A stretch of 64,000 nucleotides of DNA from Patescibacteria group bacterium (GTDB lineage Bacteria; Patescibacteriota; Minisyncoccia; 2-02-FULL-40-12; IGHO2-01-FULL-4-A). The stretch spans positions 369 through 64,368 of the forward strand of contig JBBTUB010000023.1 of NCBI GenBank assembly GCA_038064015.1, read 5' to 3'. The notes beneath the pieces were generated by a model that was given only the letters and a program-made list of their open reading frames with translations, did not search any database and was not told where the DNA came from. This document shows, piece after piece, positions 3,652 through 59,001 of this stretch; position 1 is the stretch's first letter; the number at the start of each line of letters is the position of its first letter. A program made the translations under genes and the position numbers.

Positions 3652-3915
3652 ATGGCTCCACGGCACGAGTGTCCCGTAAAGGCTCTCCATGATGCTCTGC
3701 AACGCCTCGAAGACGTCAGGCGAGGCAGAAAAGATGTCGCCGCTCCGAGCGACACAACTCTGATTACCTACTTCGATCTGGCGATGAGTAAGCATGAGTT
3801 TGGGCAGCTCGCTCGAACTCGCGCTCTCGATCGCTTGGTCCCCCTCAGACCACACCTTGTCAGAAGTCTTGGTGAGAAGTATAGCCTCACCCCCACGCCC
3901 CGACAGCAGAAATAG
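3652..3915 (+). CDS. GC-rich orphan cassette 1: 87-aa hypothetical protein with its own SD and terminator
   Basis: AGGAG sits 11 nt before the ATG. The ORF is visibly GC3-richer than its neighbours and is followed by an intrinsic terminator. No homolog recognised. Confidence 0.5.
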   Translation: MAPRHECPVKALHDALQRLEDVRRGRKDVAAPSDTTLITYFDLAMSKHEFGQLARTRALDRLVPLRPHLVRSLGEKYSLTPTPRQQK

Positions 3916-3958
3916 CTCCCCAGCGGCTCGATCATTATTTCGATTCGAGTCCGCAACA

Positions 3959-3998
3959 CCCGTCGTCGCCTACGTGCGTCGGCGGGCTGTTCATTTTT
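3959..3998 (+). terminator. intrinsic terminator of cassette 1
   Basis: A GC-rich stem (cccgtcg ... cggcggg) is followed by ctgttcatttttat. Confidence 0.55.
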
Positions 3999-4003
3999 AT
4001 ACT

Positions 4004-4019
4004 ACTGTACTAGTACAGT
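4004..4019. repeat. perfect 16-bp palindrome ACTGTACTAGTACAGT
   Basis: The sequence is its own reverse complement. It sits between the convergent 3' ends of cassette 1 and lysS. Confidence 0.7.
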
Positions 4020-4036
4020 GTCGTAAAAGCAGAATA

Positions 4037-5821
4037 CTAGCTGAAGAGTTTCAAATCCCCGGTCAGTTTTTCTACCAAGGATTTTTTGCCGAAAATGAGC
4101 ACACCGTAGTAATCGATGTCTTCGCGGTTTTTGCCTTTCGTCCACTCGATGACTTTTTTGTCGTCTGTAGTTTCGAGCATTTCTTTGGTAAACTCGGCGA
4201 CATCAAGATCGAGCTCCTTTGCTTGATCAACCAGATTGCATATCGCTTTGTTTGAGTCAGCGACTTTGATCATGATCGCATGCTGGATGTTGAGATTAAT
4301 TTTTTGATAATCCTTTGTAGCGATCGTATCCTGCATAAACAACTCTCTGCCAAGCCGCGCCCCAAACGCGGCATTAAGATGAGCAATTGTGTTCATCTCC
4401 TGCCACGGCTCCATGTCTTGAGCTCTATTGATAATCGCCACGGCAATCTTGCTTTCTTTTGCTTTACCGGGAACGGTTTCTTTGAGGTCTTTCGGCCTCA
4501 TGAACGGAAACGGGATCACGTCGCGAATGGAGTGCTGGTCGGTTAAGAGCATGGTCATGCGGTCAATACTGATGGCAATCCCACAAGTGGGCGGCATACC
4601 GATCTCTAGGGCGTGCAGATAATCTCGATCCATACGTTGGGCTTCTTCGTCGCCTTTTTTGAGTGCTTCTTCCTGCGTCCGCCAGTTTTCTTCCAAAATA
4701 GAGGCGTCGGTCAGTTCAGAATAATTATTCCCCACTTCCATGCCGTTGATATAGTGCTCAAAGCGCTCCACGATTTCCGGGTTATCATGCTTCGGCTTGG
4801 CAAGCGGAGAGGTTGCTTTCGGATAGTCGTACAAAATTGTCGGCTGGATAAAGAACGGCTCACATTCCTCGATGGTCGCCTTGCCGTATTCTTGAAGCGC
4901 TTCAGCATATCGGATCCGGCGCCACGGCGCTTTAAAGTCGATCGTGGTGCCTTGATACGTGACCTTCGTCCCACTAGTTATTTTTTGCACCACATATTCT
5001 GTAATAGCCTCCACCAGCTTCATGCCGGCTTCATAGTCGCTATACGCCGTCATTGCCTCCATGATGGTGAACTCCGGATTGTGGCTCCGATCAATGCCTT
5101 CGTTGCGAAAATCCGTAGAAAATTCAAATACGCGCTCCATGCCGCCAACCACAAGCCGCTTGAGATACATTTCATCTGAAATACGCATATAGACGTCCAT
5201 GCCTAAAGCATTGAGACGTGACTTGAACGGCCGCGCGGATCCGCCTCCATACATCGGCTGGAGAATGGGAGTCTGGACCTCAGCATAGCCGCGCCCAATA
5301 AAAAACTCCCGCATCGCTTCTATTACTTTCCCGCGCGTAACAAAAACATCCTTTACGGACGGATTCATGATCATATCGACATAGCGCTGACGATAGCGCT
5401 CTTCGACATCTTGTAGGCCATGCCACTTCTCGGGAAGCGGAAGGAGCGACTTGGTCAGCATCCGATACTTTTCGACTTCAAGGGTCTTCTCGCCTTTTTG
5501 TGTGGTGAACAGCAGTCCAAAAACTTCCAGAAAATCTCCAATGTCTGTTGTCTCCAGAGGCTGCTGATTTTTAAATAACACTTGGATGGTGCCCGTACCA
5601 TCCAAGAGATCCATAAATGTGATTGCGCCATGTCCCCGCGCGGCCATAACACGGCCAACGAGAACAAGACGGTCTTTGTTCGCCACAAAATCATCAAAAC
5701 CCTCAAGCGCAGCAGCGATCGTATGCGTGCGCCATGACTTGGCCGGATACGGATCAATGCCGGCATTGCGAAGCTTTTCCAGTTTTTCTACGCGAGCAGC
5801 GCGAATGTCATCAAGGGGCAT
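4037..5821 (-). CDS. lysS: lysyl-tRNA synthetase (class II) with an extra ~150-aa C-terminal domain
   Basis: N-terminal OB fold and class II core (motifs up to ...GIAISIDRMTMLLTDQHSIRDVIPFPFMRP). The unassigned extension runs from KESKIAVAIINRAQD to YYGVLIFGKKSLVEKL. Confidence 0.9.
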   Translation of the reverse strand: MPLDDIRAARVEKLEKLRNAGIDPYPAKSWRTHTIAAALEGFDDFVANKDRLVLVGRVMAARGHGAITFMDLLDGTGTIQVLFKNQQPLETTDIGDFLEVFGLLFTTQKGEKTLEVEKYRMLTKSLLPLPEKWHGLQDVEERYRQRYVDMIMNPSVKDVFVTRGKVIEAMREFFIGRGYAEVQTPILQPMYGGGSARPFKSRLNALGMDVYMRISDEMYLKRLVVGGMERVFEFSTDFRNEGIDRSHNPEFTIMEAMTAYSDYEAGMKLVEAITEYVVQKITSGTKVTYQGTTIDFKAPWRRIRYAEALQEYGKATIEECEPFFIQPTILYDYPKATSPLAKPKHDNPEIVERFEHYINGMEVGNNYSELTDASILEENWRTQEEALKKGDEEAQRMDRDYLHALEIGMPPTCGIAISIDRMTMLLTDQHSIRDVIPFPFMRPKDLKETVPGKAKESKIAVAIINRAQDMEPWQEMNTIAHLNAAFGARLGRELFMQDTIATKDYQKINLNIQHAIMIKVADSNKAICNLVDQAKELDLDVAEFTKEMLETTDDKKVIEWTKGKNREDIDYYGVLIFGKKSLVEKLTGDLKLFS

Positions 5822-5824
5822 GAC

Positions 5825-6280
5825 TTATGTTACCTCAAGTATCTTATATTTCACAGTTCCGCTGGGGATATGCGCTTCGACTTCTTCGCCTTTCTCTTTG
5901 CCCATGAAGGCGATGCCGAGCGGAGATTCATTGGAAATAAAGCCTTGGGCGGGATTGGATTCCGCCGGGCCGACAATGGTAAATTGCTTGGTCGTGCCGC
6001 CGAACTTCACGCTGACCGTAGATCCTATGGCCACATTTTTTTGCTTATGATGAGGCGCGATAACCACCGCGTGCTTGAGTAAGTCTTTCAACTCCTCAAT
6101 GCGCCCTTCATTCATTCCCTGCGCCTCTCGCGCTTCAGCATACTCGGCATTTTCGGACAAATCACCAAGCTCCTTGGCTTCAAGAATGCGCTTGGCGATA
6201 TCGGGACGCAAGGTGGTTTCCCGCTCTTCCAGCTCTTTCTTCAATTTTTCCAAACCCTCCTGACTAAGATATTGTGTCAT
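5825..6280 (-). CDS. greA: transcription elongation factor GreA
   Basis: It has the GreA N-terminal coiled coil with ELGDLSENAEYAEAREAQ, plus the C-terminal FKBP-like domain. Confidence 0.93.
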   Translation of the reverse strand: MTQYLSQEGLEKLKKELEERETTLRPDIAKRILEAKELGDLSENAEYAEAREAQGMNEGRIEELKDLLKHAVVIAPHHKQKNVAIGSTVSVKFGGTTKQFTIVGPAESNPAQGFISNESPLGIAFMGKEKGEEVEAHIPSGTVKYKILEVT

Positions 6281-6292
6281 AACAATAATGAA

Positions 6293-10386: not shown

Positions 10387-10390
10387 GGAG

Positions 10391-11587: not shown

Positions 11588-11602
11588 GGGGCTAGTATAT
11601 CA

Positions 11603-12277: not shown

Positions 12278-12278
12278 A

Positions 12279-13316: not shown

Positions 13317-13633
13317 GCGGTCTTGGGTGCATGACCCTCGAGTTTCCTTTCAACTTTGGTAAGTCTCTCCTCAAAGCCTTTTTGACCAACCTTGATAGCT
13401 GCAACATCATCGATAAGCTTCTCCTGGCCTTTTTTTAAATCTTTAATATCGTCCTGGATTGCAGGAATCACGCTGACAAACTCAAGAATCGTCTTGATAT
13501 TGCTCGCCATATCCTCATGCATGACCTCCCGCTCTTTTTTCTTTGTTATGACAGGCATAGTCCAATTGTAGTCGAGATAATGTAATGGGTCAAACCATGG
13601 CCGCGACAGTTCATTTCTCAAACGCAGAAACAA
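13313..13633 (-). CDS. hypothetical coiled-coil protein (start uncertain; may begin at MPVITKK, 13558)
   Basis: ORF with an ATGA overlap with rseP. The product is charged and helical. No homolog recognised. Confidence 0.4.
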   Translation of the reverse strand: MFLRLRNELSRPWFDPLHYLDYNWTMPVITKKKEREVMHEDMASNIKTILEFVSVIPAIQDDIKDLKKGQEKLIDDVAAIKVGQKGFEERLTKVERKLEGHAPKTA

Positions 13634-14531
13634 GTACTTTCTTAATCGCGCCTGTTCTTAGCCCCTCTAAGTCTCTATAAGTATTCTGCAATATTCGTAA
13701 TCCGGCTTTTTTGCCTGCTTGCCCGATGGAATCTTTAAAAATATCGATAAATGCAGGTTCAGCTCTCAAATATCGAGTTATCCCAGCCAGCGAGGATAGC
13801 TCCTCGATAATCCTCCAGAAACCCTCTTGATCCCCTCCTCCATGTTCAAGTAAAATCAACTGATGGATGTAGGTTGGATCTTCTAGATTCTCTCGTATAT
13901 TCTGAGCGAACTGTGCGCCTTCTTTTCGATTAATATATTCAAATAATTCATTCAGGCGCGATCGGTGGATTGTATAATATCGCATGTTACCTTGGTCGAG
14001 ATAGGGTATAGGAATTTTGCCCATCTTCATAAACTGGTCCAAAATAACAAGGCTATTTGGGCGCAGGTCTAAAAGATGTAAAAACCTTCCTCCTGGTTTT
14101 AAAACCCTCCTCAATTCGGAAAATGCGGTCGCTAAGTCGTCGTCAAAAAGCGTATCAAATGAGGCCAGAGAAAGAACGTTCGCAAGACTTTCATCTCCGA
14201 ATGGCAATTTCAGAGCATCCGCCCGTACCCGATTACCTTCGTACAATCGATTATTAGATCTAAAAATTGCTTCTGAGTTTTCTGTTTCAATAATTCTCGA
14301 ATCCTGTGTTATTGACTTCAACGCACCATCACCAGCACCAAGTTCGATAATGGGCTCCTGATTGTTAAAAAATTGCTCGAAGAGTTTTGCGCAAAGCGAC
14401 TTCATTGACTCGGTCGTTTCTGCTCTTACTTTTCTAAAACGATCAAAATGACGTGGATCTCCCCAACTCGCTTTTGTTAATGTCTTATACTCCTCCGGAA
14501 CTCCAGCATGTTTTCCTGATTCTCGGATCAT
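13611..14531 (-). CDS. class I SAM-dependent methyltransferase
   Basis: IIELGAGDGA is the glycine-rich SAM motif I. LKPGGRFLHL is the post-II motif. Confidence 0.75.
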   Translation of the reverse strand: MIRESGKHAGVPEEYKTLTKASWGDPRHFDRFRKVRAETTESMKSLCAKLFEQFFNNQEPIIELGAGDGALKSITQDSRIIETENSEAIFRSNNRLYEGNRVRADALKLPFGDESLANVLSLASFDTLFDDDLATAFSELRRVLKPGGRFLHLLDLRPNSLVILDQFMKMGKIPIPYLDQGNMRYYTIHRSRLNELFEYINRKEGAQFAQNIRENLEDPTYIHQLILLEHGGGDQEGFWRIIEELSSLAGITRYLRAEPAFIDIFKDSIGQAGKKAGLRILQNTYRDLEGLRTGAIKKVLVSAFEK

Positions 14532-20679: not shown

Positions 20680-20703
20680 ACCTTGAGTATAGCAAGGAAA
20701 AGT

Positions 20704-20757
20704 AGAATTTTAAAAGGCCCGGCACGCGTGTTGTTACACATGGTGTGCGCCGGGCCC
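20704..20757 (-). terminator. intrinsic terminator of cassette 2
   Basis: A ggcccggc ... gccgggcc stem with an inner hairpin. On the minus strand it is followed by TTTTAAAATTC. Confidence 0.6.
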
Positions 20758-20788
20758 CTTACTCGCGGTTGCCGCGAGGTACTGGTGG

Positions 20789-21082
20789 TCATACTGGAGG
20801 AGGCGATCTCGAAGTCCATCGGTCTAATCTATAATACATATAGATTAGACCGATGAAGATCACCACTCCTTCGACGTAGAAGATCCAGGGGAAGAACATG
20901 TCGAGCTGCTGACTGGCCAGCTCTAGAGGGGTTTCTCCCCATGGGCCAGTAGAGAGCTGGGCAGCCCTCCACGACACGATCCTGCCACTGTTCAGGGTAA
21001 CCCCAAGTGCGCTCCATATCATGGCGGCCCAACTTATGGCCCCGGACAGGATGACGTGGATAGCCCATAGTGTTCTGCGCAT
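20789..21082 (-). CDS. GC-rich orphan cassette 2: 97-aa two-TM membrane protein
   Basis: GGAGG sits 5 nt before the ATG at 21082. A TTGACT-18-TATAAT promoter lies upstream and a terminator downstream. The composition is atypical for this window. Confidence 0.55.
   Translation of the reverse strand: MRRTLWAIHVILSGAISWAAMIWSALGVTLNSGRIVSWRAAQLSTGPWGETPLELASQQLDMFFPWIFYVEGVVIFIGLIYMYYRLDRWTSRSPPPV
20817..20855. repeat. perfect 17-bp inverted repeat (CATCGGTCTAATCTATA / TATAGATTAGACCGATG, 5-nt loop) inside the cassette 2 CDS
   Basis: Both arms read directly from the sequence. The repeat is exact over 17 bp. Confidence 0.9.
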
Positions 21083-21123
21083 GAATGCCTCCAAAATCGC
21101 CGAGCTGAACCCGACGTGATCAT

Positions 21124-21153
21124 ATTATACCACGCTTTATATTAAAAAGTCAA
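21124..21153 (-). promoter_or_regulatory. sigma70-like promoter of cassette 2 (TTGACT-18 nt-TATAAT)
   Basis: The minus strand reads ttgactttttaatataaagcgtggtataat, ending about 40 nt upstream of the ATG. Confidence 0.55.
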
Positions 21154-21167
21154 ATCAAGGCACCGAG

Positions 21168-24934: not shown

Positions 24935-25323
24935 GGTCGTACGGTAATCGTTCCCCGCTCATTTTTATTATTAACATTGTAATAGTCGTACGTCCCCGCT
25001 TCGGTGAATACGTGCGTATACACCGCGGAAGATACTAAGTCTCCCGATGGGCCAAATGATCCGTCGATGCTCATCGTTACCTCGCTTTCATTGCGGAACG
25101 CCACCGAATCTTTCGTTCGTATCTGAAGATTCGTCGGACTGAATATGCCATGGTTATAGGATACGCTATACTGTCGCGGCGGCCTGACCGTTTGCGCCGC
25201 GTGCGGCTCGGGCAACGGATTATTTTTGGTAAAAATCAAAATCGCCGCGACAAACAATACGGTGATCCCCATAATCGCCAGCCACATCCCTCCATGGTTT
25301 TTGGGGTCTAGCTGGTCGCCCAT
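24931..25323 (-). CDS. membrane-anchored hypothetical protein with a cupredoxin-like beta domain (no Cu ligands seen)
   Basis: An N-terminal TM helix precedes a beta-rich domain ending VYTHVFTEAGTYDYYN. There is no Cys, His or Met copper site. Confidence 0.35.
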   Translation of the reverse strand: MGDQLDPKNHGGMWLAIMGITVLFVAAILIFTKNNPLPEPHAAQTVRPPRQYSVSYNHGIFSPTNLQIRTKDSVAFRNESEVTMSIDGSFGPSGDLVSSAVYTHVFTEAGTYDYYNVNNKNERGTITVRP

Positions 25324-25919
25324 AGGGTAAGCTGTTCTTTAATCCTATCTCCCGGTGTCTCGAACCCCGGCATATAGACAACCTTGTCACTATAGTTCAT
25401 AAAATGAAAATATTGAAGCTGCGCACGCATATCGGTCTCATTAACTTCATTGCCAAACAACTCTCGAGAGCGAGCTATAAGTTCAGGAATTGAGTGATAG
25501 TCCTTAATGATGAAATACAGATCGACGTAATCTTTCCATTTCGCCCGGCGGCCCAAGGCGTGGAGTTTCATCGCGCCCAGCGTCACCAGATCCGGCATTT
25601 TGATAATATCCCGCAATGCGCGATCGTACGGAATCTTGAATCGGTACTTCATGAACGTGAATTGCACGCCGTTTATGTAGAGTGTGTATTGTCCTTCTTG
25701 GTCGGTCTGGACTTTTTCGATCGGAGCAACTTTATTGATCTGATCTGCAATCATCCCGTTGTCAAAATCCTTTTCAGTAAACAAGTCGAAATCAACCGAG
25801 AGCCGATGGCCGATCTGCAGGGCAACTGCAGTTCCTCCGACCAAGCTAAAATCCTTCGAAAAATACTTGACCAGCGGCAAGAGCTTGCGTTGTTCGTCAG
25901 TGAATATTTCTTCGTGCAT
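25308..25919 (-). CDS. AbiEii/AbiGii-family nucleotidyltransferase (type IV toxin-like, DUF1814)
   Basis: LVGGTAVALQIGHRLSVDFDLF matches the NTase fold of the AbiEii family. The start is probably MHEEIF. The ORF-track extension to 26063 looks like non-coding read-through. Confidence 0.55.
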   Translation of the reverse strand: MHEEIFTDEQRKLLPLVKYFSKDFSLVGGTAVALQIGHRLSVDFDLFTEKDFDNGMIADQINKVAPIEKVQTDQEGQYTLYINGVQFTFMKYRFKIPYDRALRDIIKMPDLVTLGAMKLHALGRRAKWKDYVDLYFIIKDYHSIPELIARSRELFGNEVNETDMRAQLQYFHFMNYSDKVVYMPGFETPGDRIKEQLTLWATS

Positions 25920-26166
25920 CGTGGGCGAAATATGTTTTAAAGAAGTCAGCCCGCTTAGGCGAATAATTGCACCGCTGATGGCTTGTTTGCTCGAAAAATA
26001 TCTCGGCGACTTTTTCTCGCCCGAGCGCTTTGATGAGATCTTGCAATTCTTCCCAATCTCCACAATTCAGCACCGCCTCAACGACAGCTTCCTCATTGAG
26101 CCCATTGTAGTCCCTGGTATACCAGATTAGATAGGGCTTGTGTCGTATGATATCGCGGAAATCCAT
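25897..26166 (-). CDS. 89-aa putative cognate partner (antitoxin-like) of the AbiEii-like NTase
   Basis: Small ORF immediately upstream on the same strand, with a small overlap. No domain recognised. Confidence 0.3.
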   Translation of the reverse strand: MDFRDIIRHKPYLIWYTRDYNGLNEEAVVEAVLNCGDWEELQDLIKALGREKVAEIFFEQTSHQRCNYSPKRADFFKTYFAHDARRNIH

Positions 26167-26178
26167 AGGCTTATTATA

Positions 26179-27033
26179 TCACATTCGAAGCTTTTGCGTC
26201 AGATCATAGGCGAGTTTCCAGGGCTTTGAAATGACCAAATCAAACGCCCCCGGATACTCGATCGTGCGACCACCCCAGCCGAGCTTAAAACGCGTTACGC
26301 CGGGCCATTTGTTCGCATCAATCCCCCACAAATCGTAGAGCGTAGAACCTAGAACTTGGAGCTTTTTTATAATTTCCCAGTGCAATGCATAGGGTGCCAT
26401 GAGAGCACGGTGCTCATGATCGGAGGCACCGTGGAGATAGTAGGCTTGATCGCCATGCATCGCGACGAGCGCGGCGGCCACGGGGGTTTCTTGATGATAT
26501 GCAATCCAAAGTTCTGTGTAATTCATGAGTTTCTCGTAATAACTTTTTGGATATGAAGAAAATTTATCGCGCGCGCTTGTCTTTTGCATGAGCTCCCAGA
26601 ATATTTCATGTTTCATGCTACGTGCTACATGAATTCCGTGTTTCTCGGCGACTCGGATATTATACCGCGTCTTGTGATGCATCGCGTCGAGCAGCTCATC
26701 TTCGGTCTTCGTCAGATCTATTACGACCGTTTTCTGCGGCTGGATGTTCTTGTTTGATTTCTGAAAGCCGGTCGCGACCAGCTGCTGTGCGACGTCGTCT
26801 TGCATTGGTTCGGCTTTTACGAAGATCGAGCCTTGTTCCCGTGCCAGTTGCCGAAGCTCTCCCGCAAACTGATGCGAGACTAATTCGGGTCCGTAGGGAA
26901 TATATAAATAGTTCTTGCCCAGAGGCAAATCGTGTTGGATAACTTTTGCGCCTGCTACCTCAAAAACTTTCCGCCCCAGCGATTTCTGAAAATCCATCCA
27001 GTCTTGCGATTGCAAAAAAGAATTCATATTCAT
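26179..27033 (-). CDS. FemAB-family peptidoglycan-bridge aminoacyltransferase-like protein
   Basis: TRYNIRVAEKHGIHV and YYLHGASDHEHRALMAPYALHWEII are characteristic of the FemABX/GNAT-fold family. Confidence 0.6.
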   Translation of the reverse strand: MNMNSFLQSQDWMDFQKSLGRKVFEVAGAKVIQHDLPLGKNYLYIPYGPELVSHQFAGELRQLAREQGSIFVKAEPMQDDVAQQLVATGFQKSNKNIQPQKTVVIDLTKTEDELLDAMHHKTRYNIRVAEKHGIHVARSMKHEIFWELMQKTSARDKFSSYPKSYYEKLMNYTELWIAYHQETPVAAALVAMHGDQAYYLHGASDHEHRALMAPYALHWEIIKKLQVLGSTLYDLWGIDANKWPGVTRFKLGWGGRTIEYPGAFDLVISKPWKLAYDLTQKLRM

Positions 27034-27764
27034 CTAACGTGAAGTGCTATTTTCGTAAATGGTTTCTTAAATATAAGTGCCCAGAGAAAATTCATACTAT
27101 AGCGAAAGTTTGTCAATAAAAAACCTTCCTTATTAAATCTCCTTGCTGAAGTGTTCATAACCAATTTAAAAGTAAATATGACCTTACCAACTTCATGCAA
27201 ACGTCTAGAAATATCTGTATCGTCTCCAAAAAATGTAAAACCAGCATCATATCCGCCTATTTTTTCTAGGGCAGTTCTTTTTATGACCATATTTCCAGCA
27301 CTTGCTAAAGAACCTGTATCAAAAAAATATTTACAACTAACATAGGCAAGATAGGAAAAGATATAAAATATTTTTAAAAGCGCCTTATGATACCCTGGCA
27401 AATCAAAAAATACACATGGTCCGGTTATTGAGATTAGGTTTGAGTCGGCATCAAATAGTTCTCTGACAATTATTGACCAGTTATCAGGGATAATAGTATC
27501 AGCGTCAATATTAGCAACTAACTCTCCATTACTATGCAAAAATCCCGCATGGCGAGCCTGTGAAGACCCCAGCTTTGGTTCTTCGATAACACGTACCCCA
27601 AGGAATGCGAGAGCAACTTCTCTTGTATGATCAGTGCTCGCATTATTCACGACAATAATTTCTGCATCATGCGGAAATTTTTCAATATGCTGAGTCAACG
27701 CTTCGAGACAGCGTGGCAAATACGCCTCTTCATTATGCGCGGGGATAATATAGCTGATTTTCAT
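27030..27764 (-). CDS. family-2 glycosyltransferase
   Basis: ISYIIPAHNEEAYL, IIVVNNASTD and DADT (DxD) are GT-A/GT2 hallmarks. Confidence 0.8.
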   Translation of the reverse strand: MKISYIIPAHNEEAYLPRCLEALTQHIEKFPHDAEIIVVNNASTDHTREVALAFLGVRVIEEPKLGSSQARHAGFLHSNGELVANIDADTIIPDNWSIIVRELFDADSNLISITGPCVFFDLPGYHKALLKIFYIFSYLAYVSCKYFFDTGSLASAGNMVIKRTALEKIGGYDAGFTFFGDDTDISRRLHEVGKVIFTFKLVMNTSARRFNKEGFLLTNFRYSMNFLWALIFKKPFTKIALHVR

Positions 27765-32225: not shown

Positions 32226-32280
32226 ATTTTCTCATTGCAGTCTTTTGCAAAATGCTGCAATGAATGCTCAAAACGAATAA

Positions 32281-32314
32281 CAGCCCGACTTTTTCCGAAG
32301 AAAAAGCAGGGCTG
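32281..32314. terminator. bidirectional hairpin terminator between uvrB (+) and cassette 3 (-)
   Basis: CAGCCCgaCTTTTTCcgaaGAAAAAGcaGGGCTG is a double hairpin with T-runs on both strands. Confidence 0.65.
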
Positions 32315-32360
32315 CAGAAACTAAGCGACCACGGTAGTAAGGACCCGAGGTCCGAAGAGG

Positions 32361-32780
32361 CTACTTGCGAAGACGGACGGAGACGCTGTTGCGATTGAAG
32401 TTGTGGCCGAGGTAGTAGCAAAAGAACAGCGTGCGCTTCTTGCCACGCCGTGGGCTGAGACATGGCACAACCCAGCAGCCGCTCGGACCCCGCCCAACCG
32501 TCCCTAGCGCGAGCAGGTACTTGTCGTCCAGCTCGCGCGGGATTTTGGTGACCATGCCCCGCAGGCACTCGAGGTGCTTCAGGCCTGCGGCGACCTCCCT
32601 TTCCTTGACCCAGAGTATCTTGCCCTTGATCACGTCCCCGTCTCCCTCCTGAAGGACGGGGACGAACTCCAGAGTTTCGCCCCCGATGAAGGGAACGTCT
32701 TCTATAAGCTCCCAGCCGTCATTGGAGCCTGACGGAGGCTTCAACTGCATTTGTGGGATAGGCCATATGTGCGTTGCCAT
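32361..32780 (-). CDS. GC-rich orphan cassette 3: 139-aa hypothetical protein
   Basis: AAGGAGG sits 8 nt before the ATG at 32780 (MATHIWPIPQ...). The composition is atypical, with a terminator downstream. The ORF-track start at 32840 is an extension. Confidence 0.5.
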   Translation of the reverse strand: MATHIWPIPQMQLKPPSGSNDGWELIEDVPFIGGETLEFVPVLQEGDGDVIKGKILWVKEREVAAGLKHLECLRGMVTKIPRELDDKYLLALGTVGRGPSGCWVVPCLSPRRGKKRTLFFCYYLGHNFNRNSVSVRLRK

Positions 32781-32810
32781 GAGTTTTTTCCTCCTTTCAT
32801 GGCTTCGGAT

Positions 32811-32850
32811 ACAGCACTGAATACATGAATCTTCACACACTCAATGCTGT
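32811..32850. promoter_or_regulatory. inverted repeat ACAGCACTGA-N20-TCAATGCTGT in the divergent cassette 3 / rpsT promoter region
   Basis: Nine of ten positions pair. It overlaps the TTGAGT / TATTCA promoter-like hexamers of cassette 3, so an operator is plausible. Confidence 0.4.
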
Positions 32851-32978
32851 ACCCGATCTTCGCAAAGTAGCTTCAAATCAAAGAACAAATATGTCTCGTA
32901 TCAAACCACAAATCGGTTATTTACGCAAGATCGCGAAAACGCTTGTTTTTTTACAAGAAGTATAGTATTATTTCCTTC

Positions 32979-39222: not shown

Positions 39223-42584
<3,362 letters not shown>

Positions 42585-44051: not shown

Positions 44052-44100
44052 TGAGTTTTTACTATATCAATGGTAGCTTGTTTTCGCAAGGAGGTCGGCA

Positions 44101-44226
44101 TGAATTGCACAGAAGCTCTCCTCGCGCTCGAGTTTCCGATCGCATACGGTCTCGAGGCGGAAAAAAGAGCAGTTGAACACTGGCGCTCGTGCAAGGAGTG
44201 CCAGAAATCGGTAACGCCGAAATGAA
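44101..44226 (+). CDS. GC-rich orphan cassette 4: 41-aa Cys-containing micro-protein (C-X27-CxxC with His)
   Basis: AAGGAGG sits 5 nt before the ATG. The product is MNCTEALLALEFPIAYGLEAEKRAVEHWRSCKECQKSVTPK. An intrinsic terminator follows. A structured-RNA alternative is not excluded. Confidence 0.35.
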
Positions 44227-44262
44227 AGGAGACAGGTCATGCCACGTGCCCCCTAGTACCCG

Positions 44263-44297
44263 ACCGCCGGCCCCCGCCGACGGTCAACTCTTTTTAT
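44263..44297 (+). terminator. intrinsic terminator after cassette 4
   Basis: gaccgccggc-cccc-gccgacggtc pairs at 9 of 10 positions and is followed by aactcttttta. Confidence 0.5.
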
Positions 44298-51160: not shown

Positions 51161-51813
51161 GTGAAATACTTAATTGCGTTTTTAAAAATTTGGATGCCGT
51201 GTCCTCCGCGTTGCCAGGGGAACTGCGCCCGCTCCGGGTGCGGCATCATGCCCAGCACTCTCCCATCATATCCCAAAACCCCCGCGATGTCATCTGTCGA
51301 GCCATTGGGGTTTTGGACATAGCGAAACGCCACCTCAATCTTGCCGTTTTTGATATATTTGCCTTCTCCATGCGCAATCGGCACTTCCAGTTTGTTGATT
51401 CCTTCGAGCCATGGGCTCTCGCCGATTTTTTCAATTTCTACCCACGTCGAGATATAGCGCTTGCTGTCATTGTGTGTGAGCGCCCCAGGAAGAAGTCCCA
51501 TGTTGGTCATGATTTGAAAGCCGTTACAGATACCGATGGCCAGCGTGTCGCGCGCAATAAATTTTTGGATCTCATCGCCAAGCTTCGCTTTGAGCTTATT
51601 CGCAAAGGCTTTGCCTGATCCTGTATCATCGCCAAATGAAAAGCCTCCCGGAATGACGAAAATCTGATAATTTTTTAAGCTTTGTAAATCATTCACATGC
51701 ACAATCTCCGCCTTCGCCCCGGCCGTCTCAAACGCAAACGCCGTCTCGTCTTCGCAGTTGAGGCCATAGCCAGAAAGGACTAGGACCTTAGGTTTTAGCT
51801 TCGTTAGCTTCAT
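51157..51813 (-). CDS. purQ: FGAM synthase glutaminase subunit PurQ
   Basis: Class I GATase with GICNGFQ (Cys) and HPER. It begins with a tandem 9-mer repeat encoding KLTKLKPK. Confidence 0.9.
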   Translation of the reverse strand: MKLTKLKPKVLVLSGYGLNCEDETAFAFETAGAKAEIVHVNDLQSLKNYQIFVIPGGFSFGDDTGSGKAFANKLKAKLGDEIQKFIARDTLAIGICNGFQIMTNMGLLPGALTHNDSKRYISTWVEIEKIGESPWLEGINKLEVPIAHGEGKYIKNGKIEVAFRYVQNPNGSTDDIAGVLGYDGRVLGMMPHPERAQFPWQRGGHGIQIFKNAIKYFT

Positions 51814-51828
51814 TAGCTTAAATTAGGC

Positions 51829-51860
51829 TTGACATGATGATGATGATGATGATGTAAAAT
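51829..51860 (+). promoter_or_regulatory. promoter of cassette 5: TTGACA-(ATG)7 spacer (20 nt)-TAAAAT
   Basis: Consensus -35 at 51829-34. The microsatellite (ATG)7 runs 51834-51854. The -10-like TAAAAT is at 51855-60, about 25 nt before the ATG. Confidence 0.5.
51834..51854. repeat. trinucleotide microsatellite (ATG)7
   Basis: Exact 7 units, read directly. On the other strand it creates a spurious His7-encoding ORF. Confidence 0.95.
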
Positions 51861-51884
51861 CATACTCGAAAGTGAGGTGGCCAC

Positions 51885-52112
51885 ATGGCTACATTGACCG
51901 ATTCTTCGAAGAGGAAACTCGATTCGCTCGAACGCGGAGAGGGATTCGTCAGCATCCGCATGGACCAGGGGACGCTGGCAAACCAACTCGCCGAGATGAG
52001 CGAGGCCGAACTGAGGGGTGTCCTGAGGAAGCTTCGGAACACGACCGACGGCTTCAAGGGGTTCCACGGCAAGCTCAACACCTCGCTCACCAAGCTCCTC
52101 GAGCACGAGTAA
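51885..52112 (+). CDS. GC-rich orphan cassette 5: 75-aa hypothetical protein
   Basis: GAGGTGG SD 4-5 nt before the ATG. MATLTDSSKRKLDSLERGEGFVSIRMDQGTLANQLAEMSEAELRGVLRKL may be HTH-like. A terminator follows. Confidence 0.5.
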   Translation: MATLTDSSKRKLDSLERGEGFVSIRMDQGTLANQLAEMSEAELRGVLRKLRNTTDGFKGFHGKLNTSLTKLLEHE

Positions 52113-52138
52113 CCTCTCCTCGTTCTCTTCCTCCCGCG

Positions 52139-52167
52139 CCGGACCCCCTGTGGTCCGGCTTTTTTTA
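52139..52167 (+). terminator. intrinsic terminator of cassette 5
   Basis: ccggaccccctgtggtccgg is followed by ctttttttat. Confidence 0.65.
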
Positions 52168-52220
52168 TTCCTACACGACATTCCAACATTCTTGAGAATG
52201 TGAGAATGTCGCTCGTATGG

Positions 52221-54806: not shown

Positions 54807-54809
54807 ATG

Positions 54810-55874
54810 CTAGTGTAGCAGAGGCGGAATCTTTGAGTCAATCAGGAAGATAATAATGCCGATGATCGCCCCAATGGCGGAGACCATCCAAAAACGCATG
54901 GTGACTTTGGTCTCATGCCAGCCTTTTGCCTCAAAATGATGATGAATGGGCGTGGAGAGAAATATTTTTTTGCCACGGAATTTTTTGGAAATCATTTGCA
55001 CAATTACCGAGAGCGATTCAAAGACAAAAATGCAGCCAATAGGAATCAGCAACAGCGGAGTATTCGTCAACATCGCGATCACCCCCAGCACCACACCCAG
55101 CGACATAGATCCCGTGTCCCCCATGAAAAACCGTGCCGGAAAAATATTGAACCACAAAAACGCCACGAGCGATCCCATGATCGCGCCGATAAACGCGACG
55201 AGATCAAGCCGCCCCTGGTCAAAGGCGATGACACCGTAGGCGCCGAGGCTCGTCAAAAAAATCCCCGCGGCCAGGCCATCGAGGCCGTCAGTTTCGTTGG
55301 CCGAAAACGCCGTCGAGACAATCACCACAATAAAAAACAATAGATACCAGCCTCCAATTACCACATCGCCAAGAAATGGGACATTGATCGAGTTAAATTC
55401 CAGCTTGTAATAAAACCACCACGCACCAATCGTCGCGATGATGAGATACAGTAAAATACGAAGCTTCATCTGGAGTCCACCGCCGTTGGGACCTTTTTTG
55501 AAAACGCCAAAAAGATCATCGAAGCCTCCTAGAACTCCGGCAAATACCATGACCGCCAAGGGTAACCAGGTTTGGGGTCGCGAGAAAAAATTTACCCGAT
55601 CCCAAAAGGTTGAGAATAGCGTCAAGAATGCCACGGTCCCCCACACGAGCACGCCTCCCATCGTGGGAGTTCCCTCCTTGGCTTTGTGAAGCTCATGAAA
55701 CACCGGCGCCGAATCCGATGAGCGAAGCTGCTTGCCCAAGCGATATTTAAAAAGGATCCGTGTCCAGAGCGGCGTGAGCGCCAGGGTAAGAAAAAACGAA
55801 ATCGCCACGACCGCGAAAATTCGGACGACGTTGAATACATTAAAAATCTCTGCGACGTCTACGGTTGTTCCCAT
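54810..55874 (-). CDS. mraY: phospho-N-acetylmuramoyl-pentapeptide transferase
   Basis: Ten TM segments with the DDLFG, NETDGLDGLA and HHHFE motifs. Confidence 0.93.
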   Translation of the reverse strand: MGTTVDVAEIFNVFNVVRIFAVVAISFFLTLALTPLWTRILFKYRLGKQLRSSDSAPVFHELHKAKEGTPTMGGVLVWGTVAFLTLFSTFWDRVNFFSRPQTWLPLAVMVFAGVLGGFDDLFGVFKKGPNGGGLQMKLRILLYLIIATIGAWWFYYKLEFNSINVPFLGDVVIGGWYLLFFIVVIVSTAFSANETDGLDGLAAGIFLTSLGAYGVIAFDQGRLDLVAFIGAIMGSLVAFLWFNIFPARFFMGDTGSMSLGVVLGVIAMLTNTPLLLIPIGCIFVFESLSVIVQMISKKFRGKKIFLSTPIHHHFEAKGWHETKVTMRFWMVSAIGAIIGIIIFLIDSKIPPLLH

Positions 55875-56788: not shown

Positions 56789-56961
56789 AGACTCTGAATT
56801 CCTCCGATAATGCTCACGATAATCAAAAACGTAAATATGCCGATGCCGACATAGTACATCAGAATCGCGAACTTCGTCGCCATCGGGTTGTGCATGTTCG
56901 AGTCACGAATGACAATCCCCACTCCATAAAAAATTATCGCGATAATTCCCAGCCAGATCAT
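56785..56961 (-). CDS. 58-aa two-TM micro-protein, translationally coupled between aspS and dacA
   Basis: The product is MIWLGIIAIIFYGVGIVIRDSNMHNPMATKFAILMYYVGIGIFTFLIIVSIIGGIQSL. Its ATG overlaps the aspS TGA (ATGA), and its TGA overlaps the dacA ATG (ATGA). Confidence 0.45.
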   Translation of the reverse strand: MIWLGIIAIIFYGVGIVIRDSNMHNPMATKFAILMYYVGIGIFTFLIIVSIIGGIQSL

Positions 56962-58340: not shown

Positions 58341-58395
58341 ATGAGTATCCTACTATGAAATGGGAAAATAACAAAGCCCCTCGGAATCATATCAC

Positions 58396-58425
58396 TTGAC
58401 TCATTGATATAATATATGCTATACT
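58396..58425 (+). promoter_or_regulatory. sigma70-like promoter of cassette 6 (TTGACT-18 nt-TATACT)
   Basis: It reads ttgactcattgatataatatatgctatact. The spacer carries ATATAA at the same offset as the cassette 2 promoter. Confidence 0.5.
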
Positions 58426-58473
58426 ATTATCACGCTGGTAACAGGGCCAGCAAGATCAAGGAGTGGTATCATT

Positions 58474-58914
58474 ATGAGTCAGTTGGAAGTCGTTTGCATC
58501 GGCGTCATCATCGGCATCGTTTTCCTGATCGTCGGCTGGTACGCCGGCAAGAAGTCAGGGAAGAATGTGGGATTCGACTGGGGGGTTGGGCAGTTCAAGA
58601 AGCGCCTCCTCCCTGGAGACAAGCTGGTCGCCATCGGGGGGCCCTTCGACTTCGTCCGCATACTGCAGGATCGGGGACTCTTCAACAACTACCAGCCGGT
58701 GACCCATGTCATGGCCGCGATCATCCGCAAAGAAGCTGGCGGCGAGGTCCTCCTCAGGACCGAACTCGCCGAAGAGAACTTCGCGGACGGGGCGACCCTA
58801 CACAACGTTACCCACGGCGACAACATGTACGTCAACACCGGAGGCAAGGTCGAGAGAGGCGACATGCCCGACGTGATCCTACGCGTTGTCAACAGCAATC
58901 GCAGGGTCGTCTGA
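58474..58914 (+). CDS. GC-rich orphan cassette 6: 146-aa N-terminally membrane-anchored hypothetical protein
   Basis: AAGGAG sits 10 nt before the ATG. The TM helix LEVVCIGVIIGIVFLIVGWYAG precedes a soluble domain. A terminator follows. Confidence 0.55.
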   Translation: MSQLEVVCIGVIIGIVFLIVGWYAGKKSGKNVGFDWGVGQFKKRLLPGDKLVAIGGPFDFVRILQDRGLFNNYQPVTHVMAAIIRKEAGGEVLLRTELAEENFADGATLHNVTHGDNMYVNTGGKVERGDMPDVILRVVNSNRRVV

Positions 58915-58960
58915 CCGACGACTAACCCAGTTCCGACGTCCGTCTCGTCAACGGCAATCC

Positions 58961-59001
58961 CCCGGAGCTCGACCTAGTCGGCTCCGGGGTGTTCTAATTT
59001 T
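58961..59001 (+). terminator. intrinsic terminator of cassette 6
   Basis: cccggagc-tcgacctagtcg-gctccggg is followed by gtgttctaatttt. Confidence 0.55.

What the first reader, a model, noticed from the sequence alone, without database searches (positions are those of the whole stretch)
3652..59001. Six compositionally foreign, self-contained mini-gene cassettes (promoter, strong SD, short ORF, intrinsic terminator) scattered through compact host operons
Six loci each carry a short ORF of 41-146 aa: 3652-3998 (+), 20704-21153 (-), 32281-32850 (-), 44052-44297 (+), 51829-52167 (+), 58396-59001 (+).

Each ORF is visibly richer in G+C and GC3 than the flanking genes. By eye this is high-50s% against mid/high-40s%. 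This was not computed.

Each has a canonical AGGAG/GGAGG Shine-Dalgarno 4-11 nt before the ATG, whereas the surrounding host genes mostly have none. Each has its own sigma70-like promoter and a hairpin plus U-tract terminator.

Four cassettes lie on the strand opposite to the surrounding operon: serS/lysS, purL/purQ, guaB/purM and aspS/APH. Host genes overlap by 1-4 nt and lack terminators.

This architecture is that of phage 'morons', or of independently regulated small effector or toxin genes. It is not expected inside a purine operon.

The proteins are unrelated to each other and to anything I recognise. They include a 2-TM membrane protein, a TM-anchored protein, a CxxC micro-protein and two possible HTH-like small proteins.
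Basis: partly seen in the sequence, partly recalled or inferred. Interest (0 to 1): 0.85.

Follow-up and report, generated by a model that had tools for sequence, protein, structure and literature searches.

The report
Mixed small genes, one DGR target
The six "foreign mini-gene cassettes" in this groundwater Patescibacteria contig are real, self-contained small genes, but they are not one kind of thing: two are inherited genes shared with relatives, three or four are recent single-gene insertions, and one of those encodes the hypervariable lectin-fold protein of a diversity-generating retroelement.

Summary
The window is a Patescibacteria MAG contig (Yanofskybacteria-like, Hainich groundwater).

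**Confirmed for all six ORFs**
- Each has a strong Shine-Dalgarno (anti-SD duplex -7.4 to -12.1 kcal/mol). Only 2 of 43 host genes reach -7 (Fisher p = 2e-6).
- Each has a stable GC-rich hairpin plus T-tract after the stop codon.
- Host genes look leaderless: 17 of 43 carry a -10 box 4-10 nt before the start codon.

**Only partly confirmed**
- Only c3, c5 and c6 are compositional outliers (GC3 0.77-0.82; host 0.55 ± 0.09, maximum 0.675).
- Only c2 and c6 have clear sigma-70 promoters. c5 has good hexamers but a 20-nt spacer.

**Synteny with relatives**
- c1 (54% identical homologue) and c4 (conserved SD and an H-x3-C-x2-C motif) sit at the same sites in relatives, so they are inherited.
- c2 is a clean ~467-bp insertion.
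- c3 and c5 are absent from every relative whose junction could be read.
- c6 sits where gene order breaks down.

**What c3 is**
- It has 31 homologues.
- One homologue lies beside a template repeat (24 of 25 mismatches at adenines) and a reverse transcriptase.
- Its model (pLDDT 88.8) has a C-type-lectin fold.
- It is a solitary DGR variable-protein gene; no TR or RT lies in the window.

c2, c5 and c6 stay unidentified, with no phage or plasmid match. "Moron-like" fits their architecture, but a phage origin is unsupported.

The parts
3652..3915 (+). c1: 87-aa small gene between lysS and serS, antisense to both. A conserved, lineage-specific gene of unknown function.
   Evidence: - SD strength -7.4 kcal/mol.
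- An 87-aa homologue with 54% identity and no gaps lies at the same site and in the same orientation in L024, whose serS is 87% identical.
- Mismatches by codon position are 33/26/59, with 31 synonymous codon changes, which indicates a protein-coding gene.
- GC3 of 0.58 is not an outlier.
3955..3995 (+). c1 terminator hairpin plus T-tract.
   Evidence: Folding energy -20.9 kcal/mol, z = -3.1. The hairpin is conserved in L024.
20789..21082 (-). c2: 97-aa ORF predicted to encode a protein with 2-3 transmembrane helices. No homologue was found with the searches that could be run.
   Evidence: - SD strength -9.3 kcal/mol.
- No significant Pfam, PHROG, NCBIfam or PADLOC hit.
- The codon-position GC pattern supports coding only weakly (GC1/GC2/GC3 = 0.49/0.51/0.62).
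20697..21167 (-). The whole c2 cassette: a clean ~467-bp insertion between the lon stop codon and the start of the amino-acid permease gene.
   Evidence: - Alignment with L014 and L015 (neighbouring genes 84-86% identical) shows lon and the permease 21 bp apart there. The window carries this block instead.
- Promoter TTGACT-18-TATAAT with an upstream TG at 21153-21124 scores 11/12, the best site in the 20-40 kb segment.
- Terminator hairpin at 20711-20761: -35.2 kcal/mol, z = -4.3.
20817..20855 (.). 17-bp perfect palindrome with a 5-nt loop, inside the 3' part of the c2 ORF. Unexplained.
   Evidence: - Found, and unique in the window and in all fetched loci.
- It accounts for all the excess folding energy of the c2 RNA: z = -4.66 with it and -0.23 without it.
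32361..32780 (-). c3: 139-aa C-type-lectin-fold protein, a member of a DGR variable-protein family. It is a solitary copy, with no TR or RT in the window.
   Evidence: - 31 homologues with E <= 1e-3 in an exhaustive search; the best is P0250 at 53% identity.
- The P0250 locus (L023) has a VR/TR pair in which 24 of 25 mismatches fall on TR adenines, plus an RVT_1 reverse transcriptase.
- AF2 model pLDDT 88.8.
- GC3 0.77.
32363..32468 (-). VR-like 3' segment of c3, ending in an IMH-like GTCTCCGTCCGTCTTCGCAAG.
   Evidence: - 77% identical to the L023 TR.
- It still carries AAC/AAT codons (N-F-N-R-N-S) where the L023 TR has AAC.
- Across the family, alignment columns opposite TR codons with an A at position 1 or 2 are more variable (2.47 vs 1.60 bits, p = 7e-4).
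32226..32945 (-). The whole c3 cassette between uvrB and rpsT: 5'UTR, SD, ORF and 3' hairpin.
   Evidence: - Absent from L017/L018 (uvrB 88% identical; uvrB-rpsT gap 37 bp) and from L021/L022 (gap 5 bp).
- A 5'UTR block is conserved with L023.
- SD strength -11.6 kcal/mol.
- Hairpin -23 kcal/mol, z = -4.5.
- 100% identical in four independent assemblies.
44100..44225 (+). c4: 41-aa Cys/His mini-protein (C3, H27, C31, C34), divergent from guaB. A small gene with a conserved position.
   Evidence: - L006 (60 aa) and L007/L021 (86 aa) have an antisense ORF at the same purM|guaB site. All share an invariant GCAAGGAGGT SD and invariant H-x3-C-x2-C.
- SD strength -12.1 kcal/mol.
- Not a compositional outlier.
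44262..44297 (+). c4 terminator hairpin plus T-tract, convergent with the end of purM.
   Evidence: Folding energy -15.9 kcal/mol, z = -3.9. Relatives have an equivalent hairpin.
51885..52112 (+). c5: 75-aa, GC3-rich ORF with no homologue found, inserted between purL and purQ and antisense to both.
   Evidence: - GC3 0.80 with a coding-type pattern (GC1/GC2/GC3 = 0.55/0.39/0.80).
- SD strength -9.1 kcal/mol.
- purL and purQ overlap or abut in L007 and L006 (purQ 78% and 73% identical), so the 407-bp gap is specific to this genome.
- No hit in Pfam, PHROGs, phage records, plasmids, IMG/VR or PDB.
51829..51860 (+). c5 promoter-like site TTGACA-20 nt-TAAAAT, whose spacer is an (ATG)7 microsatellite.
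   Evidence: - Sequence read.
- It is the only trinucleotide repeat of 5 or more units in the 64 kb.
- The repeat count is the same in an independent assembly, L001.
52138..52168 (+). c5 terminator.
   Evidence: Best-scoring terminator in the 40-60 kb segment: 8 base pairs, 7 of them G-C, followed by T7. Folding z = -4.7.
58474..58914 (+). c6: 146-aa, GC3-rich ORF with no homologue found, carrying an N-terminal transmembrane helix. It lies between aspS and a low-GC APH gene.
   Evidence: - GC3 0.82 (GC1/GC2/GC3 = 0.61/0.35/0.82).
- SD strength -8.1 kcal/mol.
- L007 has a different gene upstream of aspS and no c6.
- c6 is present in every assembly that carries the identical aspS.
- No database hit.
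- Single-sequence AF2 was uninformative (pLDDT 36).
58396..58425 (+). c6 promoter, TTGACT-18-TATACT with an upstream TG.
   Evidence: Scores 10/12.
58959..59003 (+). c6 terminator hairpin plus T-tract.
   Evidence: Folding energy -26.7 kcal/mol, z = -4.7.

Best explanation
The six loci are genuine small protein-coding transcription units, but they have different histories. What they share is SD-dependent translation with a private terminator, in a Patescibacteria genome whose core genes are SD-less and mostly leaderless.

**Two are inherited lineage genes.**
- c1 is an 87-aa protein of unknown function.
- c4 is a fast-evolving Zn-ribbon-like mini-protein with a (C/H)-x23-H-x3-C-x2-C motif, transcribed divergently from guaB.

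**Four are accessory genes gained at junctions between core genes (c2, c3, c5 and probably c6).**
- c3 is the variable-protein gene of a diversity-generating retroelement. It is a minimal C-type-lectin-fold ligand-binding protein whose C-terminal 40 or so residues correspond to a variable repeat.
- Here c3 stands alone. Either it is served in trans by an RT and template repeat elsewhere in the genome, or it is a fossil of a DGR that lost them.
- Its GC-rich composition travels with the gene family rather than pointing to a particular donor.
- c5 and c6 share that composition, and c2 is a clean insertion. Their products (a 75-aa soluble protein and two small membrane proteins) remain unidentified.

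**Shown**
- The anatomy of the loci.
- The contrast in SD strength with host genes.
- Presence or absence of each locus in relatives.
- The c3 family, its predicted fold, and the DGR in a homologue's locus.

**Inferred**
- Leaderless expression of the host genes.
- That the cassettes are expressed at all.
- That insertion rather than loss explains the pattern.
- Every statement about protein function other than the fold of c3.
For: **Anatomy**
- SD contrast: 6 of 6 cassettes versus 2 of 43 host genes.
- The same contrast appears in five relatives' loci. There, SD energies of -7 or lower fall on 5 Pfam-less, mostly GC-richer genes and on only one core gene, M50 in L015.
- Hairpin terminators at all six.
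- Leaderless-type -10 boxes upstream of 17 of 43 host genes; background 7%.

**Inherited genes**
- c1: homologue in L024 at the same site, with a coding-type substitution pattern.
- c4: positional homologues with invariant SD and invariant H/C ligands.

**Insertions**
- c2: clean ~467-bp insertion relative to L014 and L015.
- c3: absent in L017/L018 and L021/L022.
- c5: absent in L006 and L007.
- These junctions are variable in relatives too. L021 has MgtC plus an RT remnant at the lon junction. L019 has a 62-aa SD-led ORF at uvrB|rpsT. L014 has its own GC3-0.78 cassette.

**c3 as a DGR target**
- Homologue family of 31.
- L023 VR/TR pair with 24 of 25 mismatches at TR adenines, plus an RT.
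- C-type-lectin fold.
- Family variability concentrated at TR-adenine codons.
- 5'UTR and VR 3' end homologous to L023.
- Family members GC-rich in three other hosts.
- A Patescibacteria-restricted, cell-encoded DGR clade, and DGRs acting on remote targets, are both documented (PMC8144416, read).
Against: **On c3**
- No TR and no RT lies in the 64-kb window.
- The c3 cassette is 100% identical across four assemblies, so active diversification of c3 is not shown.

**On insertion versus loss**
- The call rests on 2-4 relatives per site, without a phylogeny.
- c6's status rests on one informative relative.

**On c2, c5 and c6**
- No sensitive homology search was possible for them.
- 'No homologue found' is therefore weak. 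c4 shows that such proteins diverge beyond recognition between genomes that are 75-80% identical in flanking proteins.
- c2's codon-position GC pattern is not clearly coding.

**On function and expression**
- c4's resemblance to the zinc-binding anti-sigma (ZAS) motif is at motif level only, with no Pfam hit.
- No expression data exist.
- The organism's 16S 3' end was not seen.
Confidence: 0.72

Rival explanations
1. All six are one class of horizontally acquired, phage-derived 'morons', or small toxin/effector genes, dropped into host operons.
For: - Shared architecture: own SD, own terminator, usually antisense to the flanks.
- c2, c3 and c5 are insertions.
- c3, c5 and c6 share a GC3 of about 0.8.
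- Similar cassettes occur at other junctions in relatives.
Against: - c1 and c4 are conserved in place and compositionally ordinary.
- No phage, IMG/VR, PHROG, plasmid or PADLOC match for any of them.
- No integrase, att site, target-site duplication or shared ends.
- c3 belongs to a cell-encoded DGR family.
Confidence: 0.12
2. The GC-rich islands are structured non-coding RNA genes or regulatory leaders, and the ORFs are chance open frames in GC-rich DNA.
For: - GC-rich DNA carries overlapping ORFs on both strands.
- c2 RNA folds with z = -4.66.
- c2's codon-position GC pattern is weak.
- c4 is only 41 aa.
Against: - No Rfam hit, even at E <= 0.5, and no tRNA or tmRNA.
- Strong period-3 GC signal in c3, c5 and c6.
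- c1 shows third-position-biased substitutions.
- c3 has a protein family and a confident fold.
- Folding z-scores of the coding parts are unremarkable: +0.26 to -2.5 for c1, c3, c5 and c6, and -0.23 for c2 once the palindrome is left out.
Confidence: 0.05
3. The cassettes are ancestral genes that were lost from the relatives examined, not insertions in this genome.
For: - Only 2-4 relatives per site were compared and no tree was made.
- c1 and c4 show that such small genes can be old yet barely recognisable.
- The junctions are generally unstable.
Against: - Relatives from different sub-lineages share identical tight junctions: lon|permease 21 bp in both L014 and L015, uvrB|rpsT 5-37 bp, and purL/purQ overlapping.
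- The GC3 of c3, c5 and c6 has not been brought towards the host value.
- c3-family genes sit in unrelated genomic contexts elsewhere.
Confidence: 0.1

Closest known systems
Diversity-generating retroelement (DGR) variable proteins with a C-type-lectin fold (Bordetella phage Mtd, Treponema TvpA). The Patescibacteria-restricted, cell-encoded DGR clade 2 of Roux et al. 2021 (PMC8144416) is the nearest group.
   Same: - c3 has a predicted C-type-lectin fold that matches TvpA and Mtd.
- Its C-terminal segment is homologous to a verified VR/TR pair in a 53%-identical homologue that sits next to an RT.
- Across the family, variability falls on codons that contain adenine in the template repeat.
- The host phylum is known to be rich in DGRs.
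   Different: - No TR and no RT lies within 64 kb, so c3 is a solitary or remote target, or a relic.
- At 139 aa it is close to a bare lectin domain.
- The family has no Pfam model.
- No sequence variation was seen among four assemblies.
Phage 'morons': independent promoter-gene-terminator units of deviant composition, inserted between genes of prophages (from my own knowledge: Juhala et al. 2000; Hendrix et al. 2000).
   Same: - c2, c5 and c6, and c3 in its architecture, are single-gene units with their own signals and terminator.
- They lie between two genes that are adjacent in relatives.
- Three of them have deviant composition.
   Different: - They sit in a cellular chromosome among housekeeping genes, not in a prophage.
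- No phage homologues were found.
- c1 and c4 do not qualify, because they are conserved and compositionally ordinary.
Zinc-binding anti-sigma (ZAS) domain, also called the zf-HC2 motif: H/C-x23-26-H-x3-C-x2-C, as in RsrA and ChrR (from my own knowledge).
   Same: c4 and its two positional homologues keep exactly this ligand spacing: C/H3, H27, C31, C34.
   Different: - No Pfam or NCBIfam match.
- At 41 aa it is too short for a full anti-sigma domain.
- No sigma-factor gene is adjacent.
- The resemblance is a lead, not a membership.
Genomes that mix leaderless and SD-led genes, such as mycobacteria (PMC4633059, PMC3898074; titles and abstracts seen). PMC6028130 from the same listing models leaderless transcription and 'atypical' genes for gene prediction.
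   Same: The core genes have a -10 box directly before the start codon and no SD, while a minority of genes use a strong SD.
   Different: - Here the SD-led minority coincides with small accessory genes or genes without detectable homologues.
- Whether this holds across the whole genome was not tested.

Membership tests
DGR variable (target) protein | Variable repeat (VR) at the 3' end of the gene, paired with a template repeat (TR) that differs from it almost only at TR adenines | tested here: not met
   - No second copy of the c3 3' segment exists anywhere in the 64-kb window.
- The feature is met in the 53%-identical homologue: L023 VR 4522-4652 and TR 5034-5164, with 24 of 25 mismatches at adenines.
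- The rest of the genome could not be searched.
DGR variable (target) protein | A DGR-type reverse transcriptase in the same genome, usually within a few kb | tested here: not met
   - tblastn with the L023 RT finds nothing in the window (best E = 1.9).
- The Pfam tables of the contig list no RVT_1 over window ~22-42 kb and ~54-62 kb; tblastn is the only test that covers the whole window.
- Remote targets are known to exist (PMC8144416).
- The rest of the MAG was not available.
DGR variable (target) protein | C-type-lectin (or Ig-like) fold that displays the VR residues on a binding surface | tested here: met
   - AF2 model from a 32-sequence alignment: pLDDT 88.8, pTM 0.82.
- The scores are moderate.
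DGR variable (target) protein | Homology to proteins shown to be DGR targets | tested here: met
   - phmmer E = 1.6e-26 to P0250.
- P0250's gene carries the A-biased VR and sits next to a TR and an RT.
- c3's VR-like segment is 77% identical to that TR.
DGR variable (target) protein | Ongoing diversification, seen as VR heterogeneity within or between populations | tested here: not met
   The c3 cassette is 100% identical over 720 nt in four independent assemblies. Consensus assemblies can hide minority variants, so read-level data are needed.
Phage moron | Located in a phage or prophage genome, between genes that are adjacent in related phages | tested here: not met
   - The flanking genes are lon, uvrB, rpsT, purL, purQ, aspS and the like.
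- No phage match was found.
Phage moron | Autonomous unit with its own promoter and terminator and a deviant nucleotide composition | tested here: inconclusive
   - Terminators are present at all six.
- Clear promoters exist only for c2 and c6.
- Deviant composition holds only for c3, c5 and c6.
ZAS / zf-HC2 anti-sigma zinc finger (for c4) | H/C-x23-26-H-x3-C-x2-C zinc ligands | tested here: met
   C3 (H in L006), H27, C31 and C34 are kept in all three positional homologues.
ZAS / zf-HC2 anti-sigma zinc finger (for c4) | Significant match to the family profile, plus a partner ECF sigma factor | tested here: not met
   - No Pfam or NCBIfam hit for c4 or its homologues.
- The neighbours are guaB and purM.
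Structured ncRNA (any Rfam family) | Match to a covariance model | tested here: not met
   No hit at gathering thresholds, and none at E <= 0.5, over the whole window.

The most novel reading that the evidence does not exclude
In this Yanofskybacteria-like clade the chromosome may be split into two parts. One is a highly syntenic, SD-less and leaderless core. The other is a floating population of self-contained, GC-rich, SD-led single-gene cassettes that land in junctions between core genes. That would be a cellular counterpart of phage morons.

DGR target genes such as c3 would be one recognisable member of this population. c5, c6, c2 and the cassettes seen in L014, L017 and L019 would be others. 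The two modes of translation initiation would then separate accessory, possibly surface or host-interaction, proteins from housekeeping genes.

A sub-case: c3 is a remote DGR target diversified in trans by an RT elsewhere in the genome.
Probability: 0.25. Interest if true: 0.65.

Novelty: new member of a known kind. Interest (0 to 1): 0.42.

Why it matters
The only part that can be named, c3, is a new and very small member of a known kind: DGR variable proteins, which are already known to be abundant in Patescibacteria.

Three things would be worth a specialist's attention:
1. A compact, roughly 140-aa C-type-lectin-fold target family has no Pfam model, and it occurs both next to an RT and alone.
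2. SD strength separates small accessory genes from a leaderless core almost perfectly, both in this window and in five relatives' loci. If that holds genome-wide, it offers a simple sequence criterion for finding recently gained genes in Patescibacteria (candidate phyla radiation, CPR) genomes. It also hints at separate translational control of the two sets.
3. Junctions between housekeeping genes act as recurrent landing sites for single genes.

None of this overturns current understanding. The main value of the result is to correct an attractive but over-unified reading.

Tried and rejected
1. **Concatenated six-protein query in the word-indexed protein search.** It returned nothing, not even the six proteins themselves, which are in the collection. 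I treat it as a technical failure, not as evidence of absence. It cost one of the three searches.
2. **ncRNA reading.** Rfam at gathering thresholds and at E <= 0.5, and ARAGORN, all found nothing. Folding z-scores of the coding parts are unremarkable. The one exception, c2, is explained entirely by its palindrome.
3. **Mobile-element signatures.**
   - No shared ends, no inverted terminal repeats, no target-site duplication, and no similarity among the cassettes.
   - An IS200/IS605-type or MITE origin for c2 was considered, because of the hairpin near one end. It was dropped because there is no matching structure at the other end.
4. **c2 as a decayed MgtC or decayed DGR part.** The lon junction in L021 carries both MgtC and an RT remnant, but c2 shows no similarity to either.
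5. **c6 and the L014 cassette as distant members of the c3 family.** hhalign probability is 0.2% or less.
6. **Database searches for the six proteins.** Pfam, PHROGs, NCBIfam and PADLOC, and tblastn against phage and plasmid records, were run on all six. PDB sequence searches covered c1, c5, c6 and the c3-family profile. IMG/VR scans covered c5 and c6. Nothing was significant.
7. **Single-sequence AF2 of c6.** pLDDT 36, unusable.
8. **Foldseek of the c3 model against viral structures.** Nothing significant. The afdb50 library was unavailable.
9. **Strain polymorphism.** Every contig that carries the identical aspS or purQ also carries c6 or c5.

Full report
**Source and assembly.** Exact look-up of the encoded proteins places the window on a roughly 73-kb contig of a 'Patescibacteria group bacterium' MAG (NCBI proteins MEK7583xxx). 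It was assembled independently from several Hainich groundwater samples from well H51. UvrB and the beta-CASP nuclease are closest to Candidatus Yanofskybacteria and Paceibacteria proteins. The cassette regions that could be compared (c3, c5, c6) are identical across these assemblies, so they are not chimeric artefacts.

**Checking the observation.** I label them c1 to c6:

| Label | Coordinates | Length |
|---|---|---|
| c1 | 3652-3915 (+) | 87 aa |
| c2 | 21082-20789 (-) | 97 aa |
| c3 | 32780-32361 (-) | 139 aa |
| c4 | 44100-44225 (+) | 41 aa |
| c5 | 51885-52112 (+) | 75 aa |
| c6 | 58474-58914 (+) | 146 aa |

*Composition.*
- 43 confident host genes have GC 0.493 ± 0.041 and GC3 0.548 ± 0.09, with a maximum GC3 of 0.675.
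- c3, c5 and c6 have GC3 of 0.77, 0.80 and 0.82, with a coding-type pattern (GC2 0.35-0.41). At most 0.3% of host pieces of the same length reach these values.
- c1, c2 and c4 (GC3 0.58-0.62) are unremarkable.
- A blind scan for GC3-rich ORFs returns c3, c5 and c6, plus one 39-aa ORF inside a host gene.

*Shine-Dalgarno.*
- Duplex energies with ACCUCCUUA are -7.4 to -12.1 kcal/mol for the six.
- The host median is -1.8, and 2 of 43 host genes reach -7 (Fisher p = 2e-6).
- Instead of an SD, 17 of 43 host genes have a TANNNT box 4-10 nt before the start codon. The background rate is 7% (p = 3e-9). This is the signature of leaderless mRNAs, which I infer rather than show.

*Terminators.* All six have a stable hairpin followed by a T-rich tract (z = -3.1 to -4.7). 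The c5 terminator is the best-scoring one in its 20-kb segment.

*Promoters.*
- Only c2 (11/12 with TG) and c6 (10/12 with TG) have strong consensus sites.
- c5 has TTGACA and TAAAAT separated by 20 nt.
- c1, c3 and c4 have no good site on their strand.

**Synteny.** Relatives were fetched through flanking host proteins.

- **c1.** L024 (serS 87% identical) has an 87-aa ORF at the same place and in the same orientation, 54% identical without gaps. Mismatches by codon position are 33/26/59. c1 is an inherited protein-coding gene.
- **c4.**
  - L006 and L007/L021 have an antisense small ORF of 60 and 86 aa in the same purM|guaB gap.
  - All share an invariant GCAAGGAGGT, a hairpin terminator and invariant H27, C31 and C34, plus C or H at position 3.
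  - The ligand spacing is that of zinc-binding anti-sigma (ZAS) / zf-HC2 zinc sites, but no profile matches.
  - The same conserved block also holds a guaB promoter (TTGCGA-17-TATAGT) ending 9 nt before the guaB ATG.
- **c2.** In L014 and L015 the lon stop codon and the permease start are 21 bp apart. The window has a clean ~467-bp block there, containing promoter, SD, ORF and terminator. L021 carries MgtC and two fragments of a DGR-type RT at that junction.
- **c3.** uvrB and rpsT are 37 bp apart in L017/L018 (uvrB 88% identical) and 5 bp apart in L021/L022. L019/L020 have an unrelated SD-led 62-aa ORF there.
- **c5.** purL and purQ overlap or abut in L007 and L006.
- **c6.** L007 has a different gene upstream of aspS. 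The neighbouring APH gene (GC 0.435) and the large protein beyond it have no counterpart in any fetched locus. c6 therefore sits at a break in gene order.
- **The contrast in relatives.** SD energies of -7 or lower fall on 5 Pfam-less, mostly GC-richer genes and on only one core gene. L014 has its own antisense cassette with GC3 0.78, a TTGACA-17-TAATAT promoter and a terminator, and this cassette is absent from L015.

**What c3 is.**
- *Homologues.* The one exhaustive protein search found 31 cluster representatives with E <= 1e-3. The best is P0250 at 53% identity. They align over the whole protein with conserved motifs: GWELxEDV, GQxHAExLL, IPxEWR, FPGTVWR, VPCL and RLVR. No member matches a relevant Pfam family; two members give isolated weak hits to unrelated DUFs.
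- *A verified DGR next to a homologue.*
  - In its contig (L023), P0250 is followed by a 131-nt direct repeat of its own 3' end, and then by a 336-aa RVT_1 protein.
  - Of the 25 mismatches between the two repeat copies, 24 lie at adenines of the downstream copy. This is the hallmark of mutagenic retrohoming by a diversity-generating retroelement.
- *The c3 3' end.* Its last 106 nt are 77% identical to that template repeat and end in the same GTCTCCGT(C/T)CGTCT(T/C)CGCAAG. Its 5'UTR shares a conserved block of about 50 nt with L023.
- *Family variability.* Alignment columns opposite template codons with an A at position 1 or 2 are more variable than the others (2.47 vs 1.60 bits, p = 7e-4).
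- *Composition.* Family members are GC-rich relative to their hosts everywhere examined: 0.655 vs 0.417, 0.589 vs 0.500 and 0.613 vs 0.429. The 'foreign' composition of c3 is therefore a trait of the family.
- *Caveat.*
  - The window holds no template repeat and no RT.
  - The cassette shows no variation among four assemblies.
  - Two other family members are also solitary.
  - c3 is thus either a remote target or a relic.
- *Literature.* Roux et al. 2021 describe a DGR clade that is cell-encoded and restricted to Patescibacteria, and note that remote targets exist (PMC8144416).

**The remaining cassettes.**
- c2, c5 and c6 have no significant match in Pfam, PHROGs, NCBIfam or PADLOC, or in phage and plasmid records; c5 and c6 were also searched against IMG/VR and PDB sequences.
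- They are unrelated to each other. c6 is also unrelated to the c3 family.
- Their RNAs are not unusually structured, apart from a 17-bp perfect palindrome inside c2.
- I could not run sensitive profile searches for them. c4 shows how fast such proteins diverge. 'No homologue found' is therefore a provisional label.

**Interpretation.** The best-supported picture has four parts:
1. The core genome is leaderless and SD-poor, with tightly packed genes that mostly carry their own -10 boxes.
2. Two old small SD-led genes, c1 and c4, sit in conserved intergenic gaps.
3. Several recent single-gene acquisitions (c2, c3, c5 and probably c6) have landed in junctions that are also variable in relatives.
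4. One of these acquisitions is a solitary DGR variable-protein gene.

'Moron-like' describes the architecture of the acquired ones. A phage origin, a toxin or effector role, and a common origin are all unsupported.

**Scoring.**
- The nameable element is a new, minimal member of a known kind.
- The near-perfect separation of accessory from core genes by SD strength, and the recurrent use of junctions between housekeeping genes, are mildly surprising and cheap to test genome-wide.
- Interest is moderate (0.42).

Noticed in passing
window 51829-51860: The spacer of the c5 promoter-like site (TTGACA ... TAAAAT) is an (ATG)7 microsatellite, which gives a 20-nt spacer. One repeat unit fewer would give the optimal 17 nt. 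It is the only trinucleotide repeat of 5 or more units in the 64 kb, so it is a candidate phase-variable promoter. An independent assembly (L001) has the same count.
   Followed up: partly
window 20817-20855: A 17-bp perfect palindrome with a 5-nt loop lies inside the c2 ORF. It is unique in the window and in all 109 fetched loci. It accounts for all the excess folding energy of the c2 RNA. Its function is unknown; an operator, a recombination site or an RNA hairpin are possibilities.
   Followed up: partly
window 51790-51820: A 9-bp unit, AAGCTAAnn, is repeated three times in tandem across the purQ start codon, exactly at the boundary of the c5 insertion. It gives purQ an N-terminal extension (MKLTKLKPK) that relatives lack.
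   Followed up: no
whole window (for example 3522-3545, 20680-20700, 44052-44090, 54807-54830): Host genes almost never have a Shine-Dalgarno. 17 of 43 have a TANNNT box 4-10 nt before the start codon, which suggests a largely leaderless transcriptome in which many genes carry their own promoter.
   Followed up: partly
L021 and L022, 1725-1881: Two fragments about 80% identical to the L023 DGR reverse transcriptase lie between lon and mgtC in a related genome from the same well. This is a decayed DGR at the very junction where the window carries c2.
   Followed up: partly
L014 10591-10986 (-), with promoter near 11130 and terminator near 10520: A related genome has its own antisense, GC-rich (GC3 0.78) 131-aa cassette encoding a transmembrane protein. 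It has a TTGACA-17-TAATAT promoter and a strong terminator, lies between the MFS and GT28 genes, and is absent from L015.
   Followed up: partly
L019 12076-12264 and 9717-9953; L017 866-1366 and 1940-2953: Further Pfam-less genes with strong SDs (-7.4 to -12.3 kcal/mol) and raised GC occur in relatives. One of them lies in the uvrB|rpsT junction, which suggests that this junction is used repeatedly.
   Followed up: partly
window 27030-27764, 42006-42584, 13611-14531, 59009-60004: Several host-strand genes are compositional outliers on the low side: a GT2 glycosyltransferase (GC 0.367), a His_Phos_1 phosphatase (0.382), a 306-aa ORF (0.417) and APH (0.435).
   Followed up: no
window about 25308-26166: An AbiEii-family nucleotidyltransferase toxin gene sits next to a small upstream ORF. 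This is likely an AbiE-type toxin-antitoxin or abortive-infection pair, and relatives (L017, L021) have one at the equivalent position.
   Followed up: no
window 4037-5821; L024 3700-5467: The lysyl-tRNA synthetase gene encodes 594 aa, with a C-terminal extension of about 130 aa. In L024 the same region is split into two ORFs of 459 and 128 aa.
   Followed up: no
L106 4077-4751 and L107 803-1477: An IS200-like Y1 transposase gene lies immediately upstream of a solitary c3-family gene in another genome. This may be a route by which such genes move.
   Followed up: no
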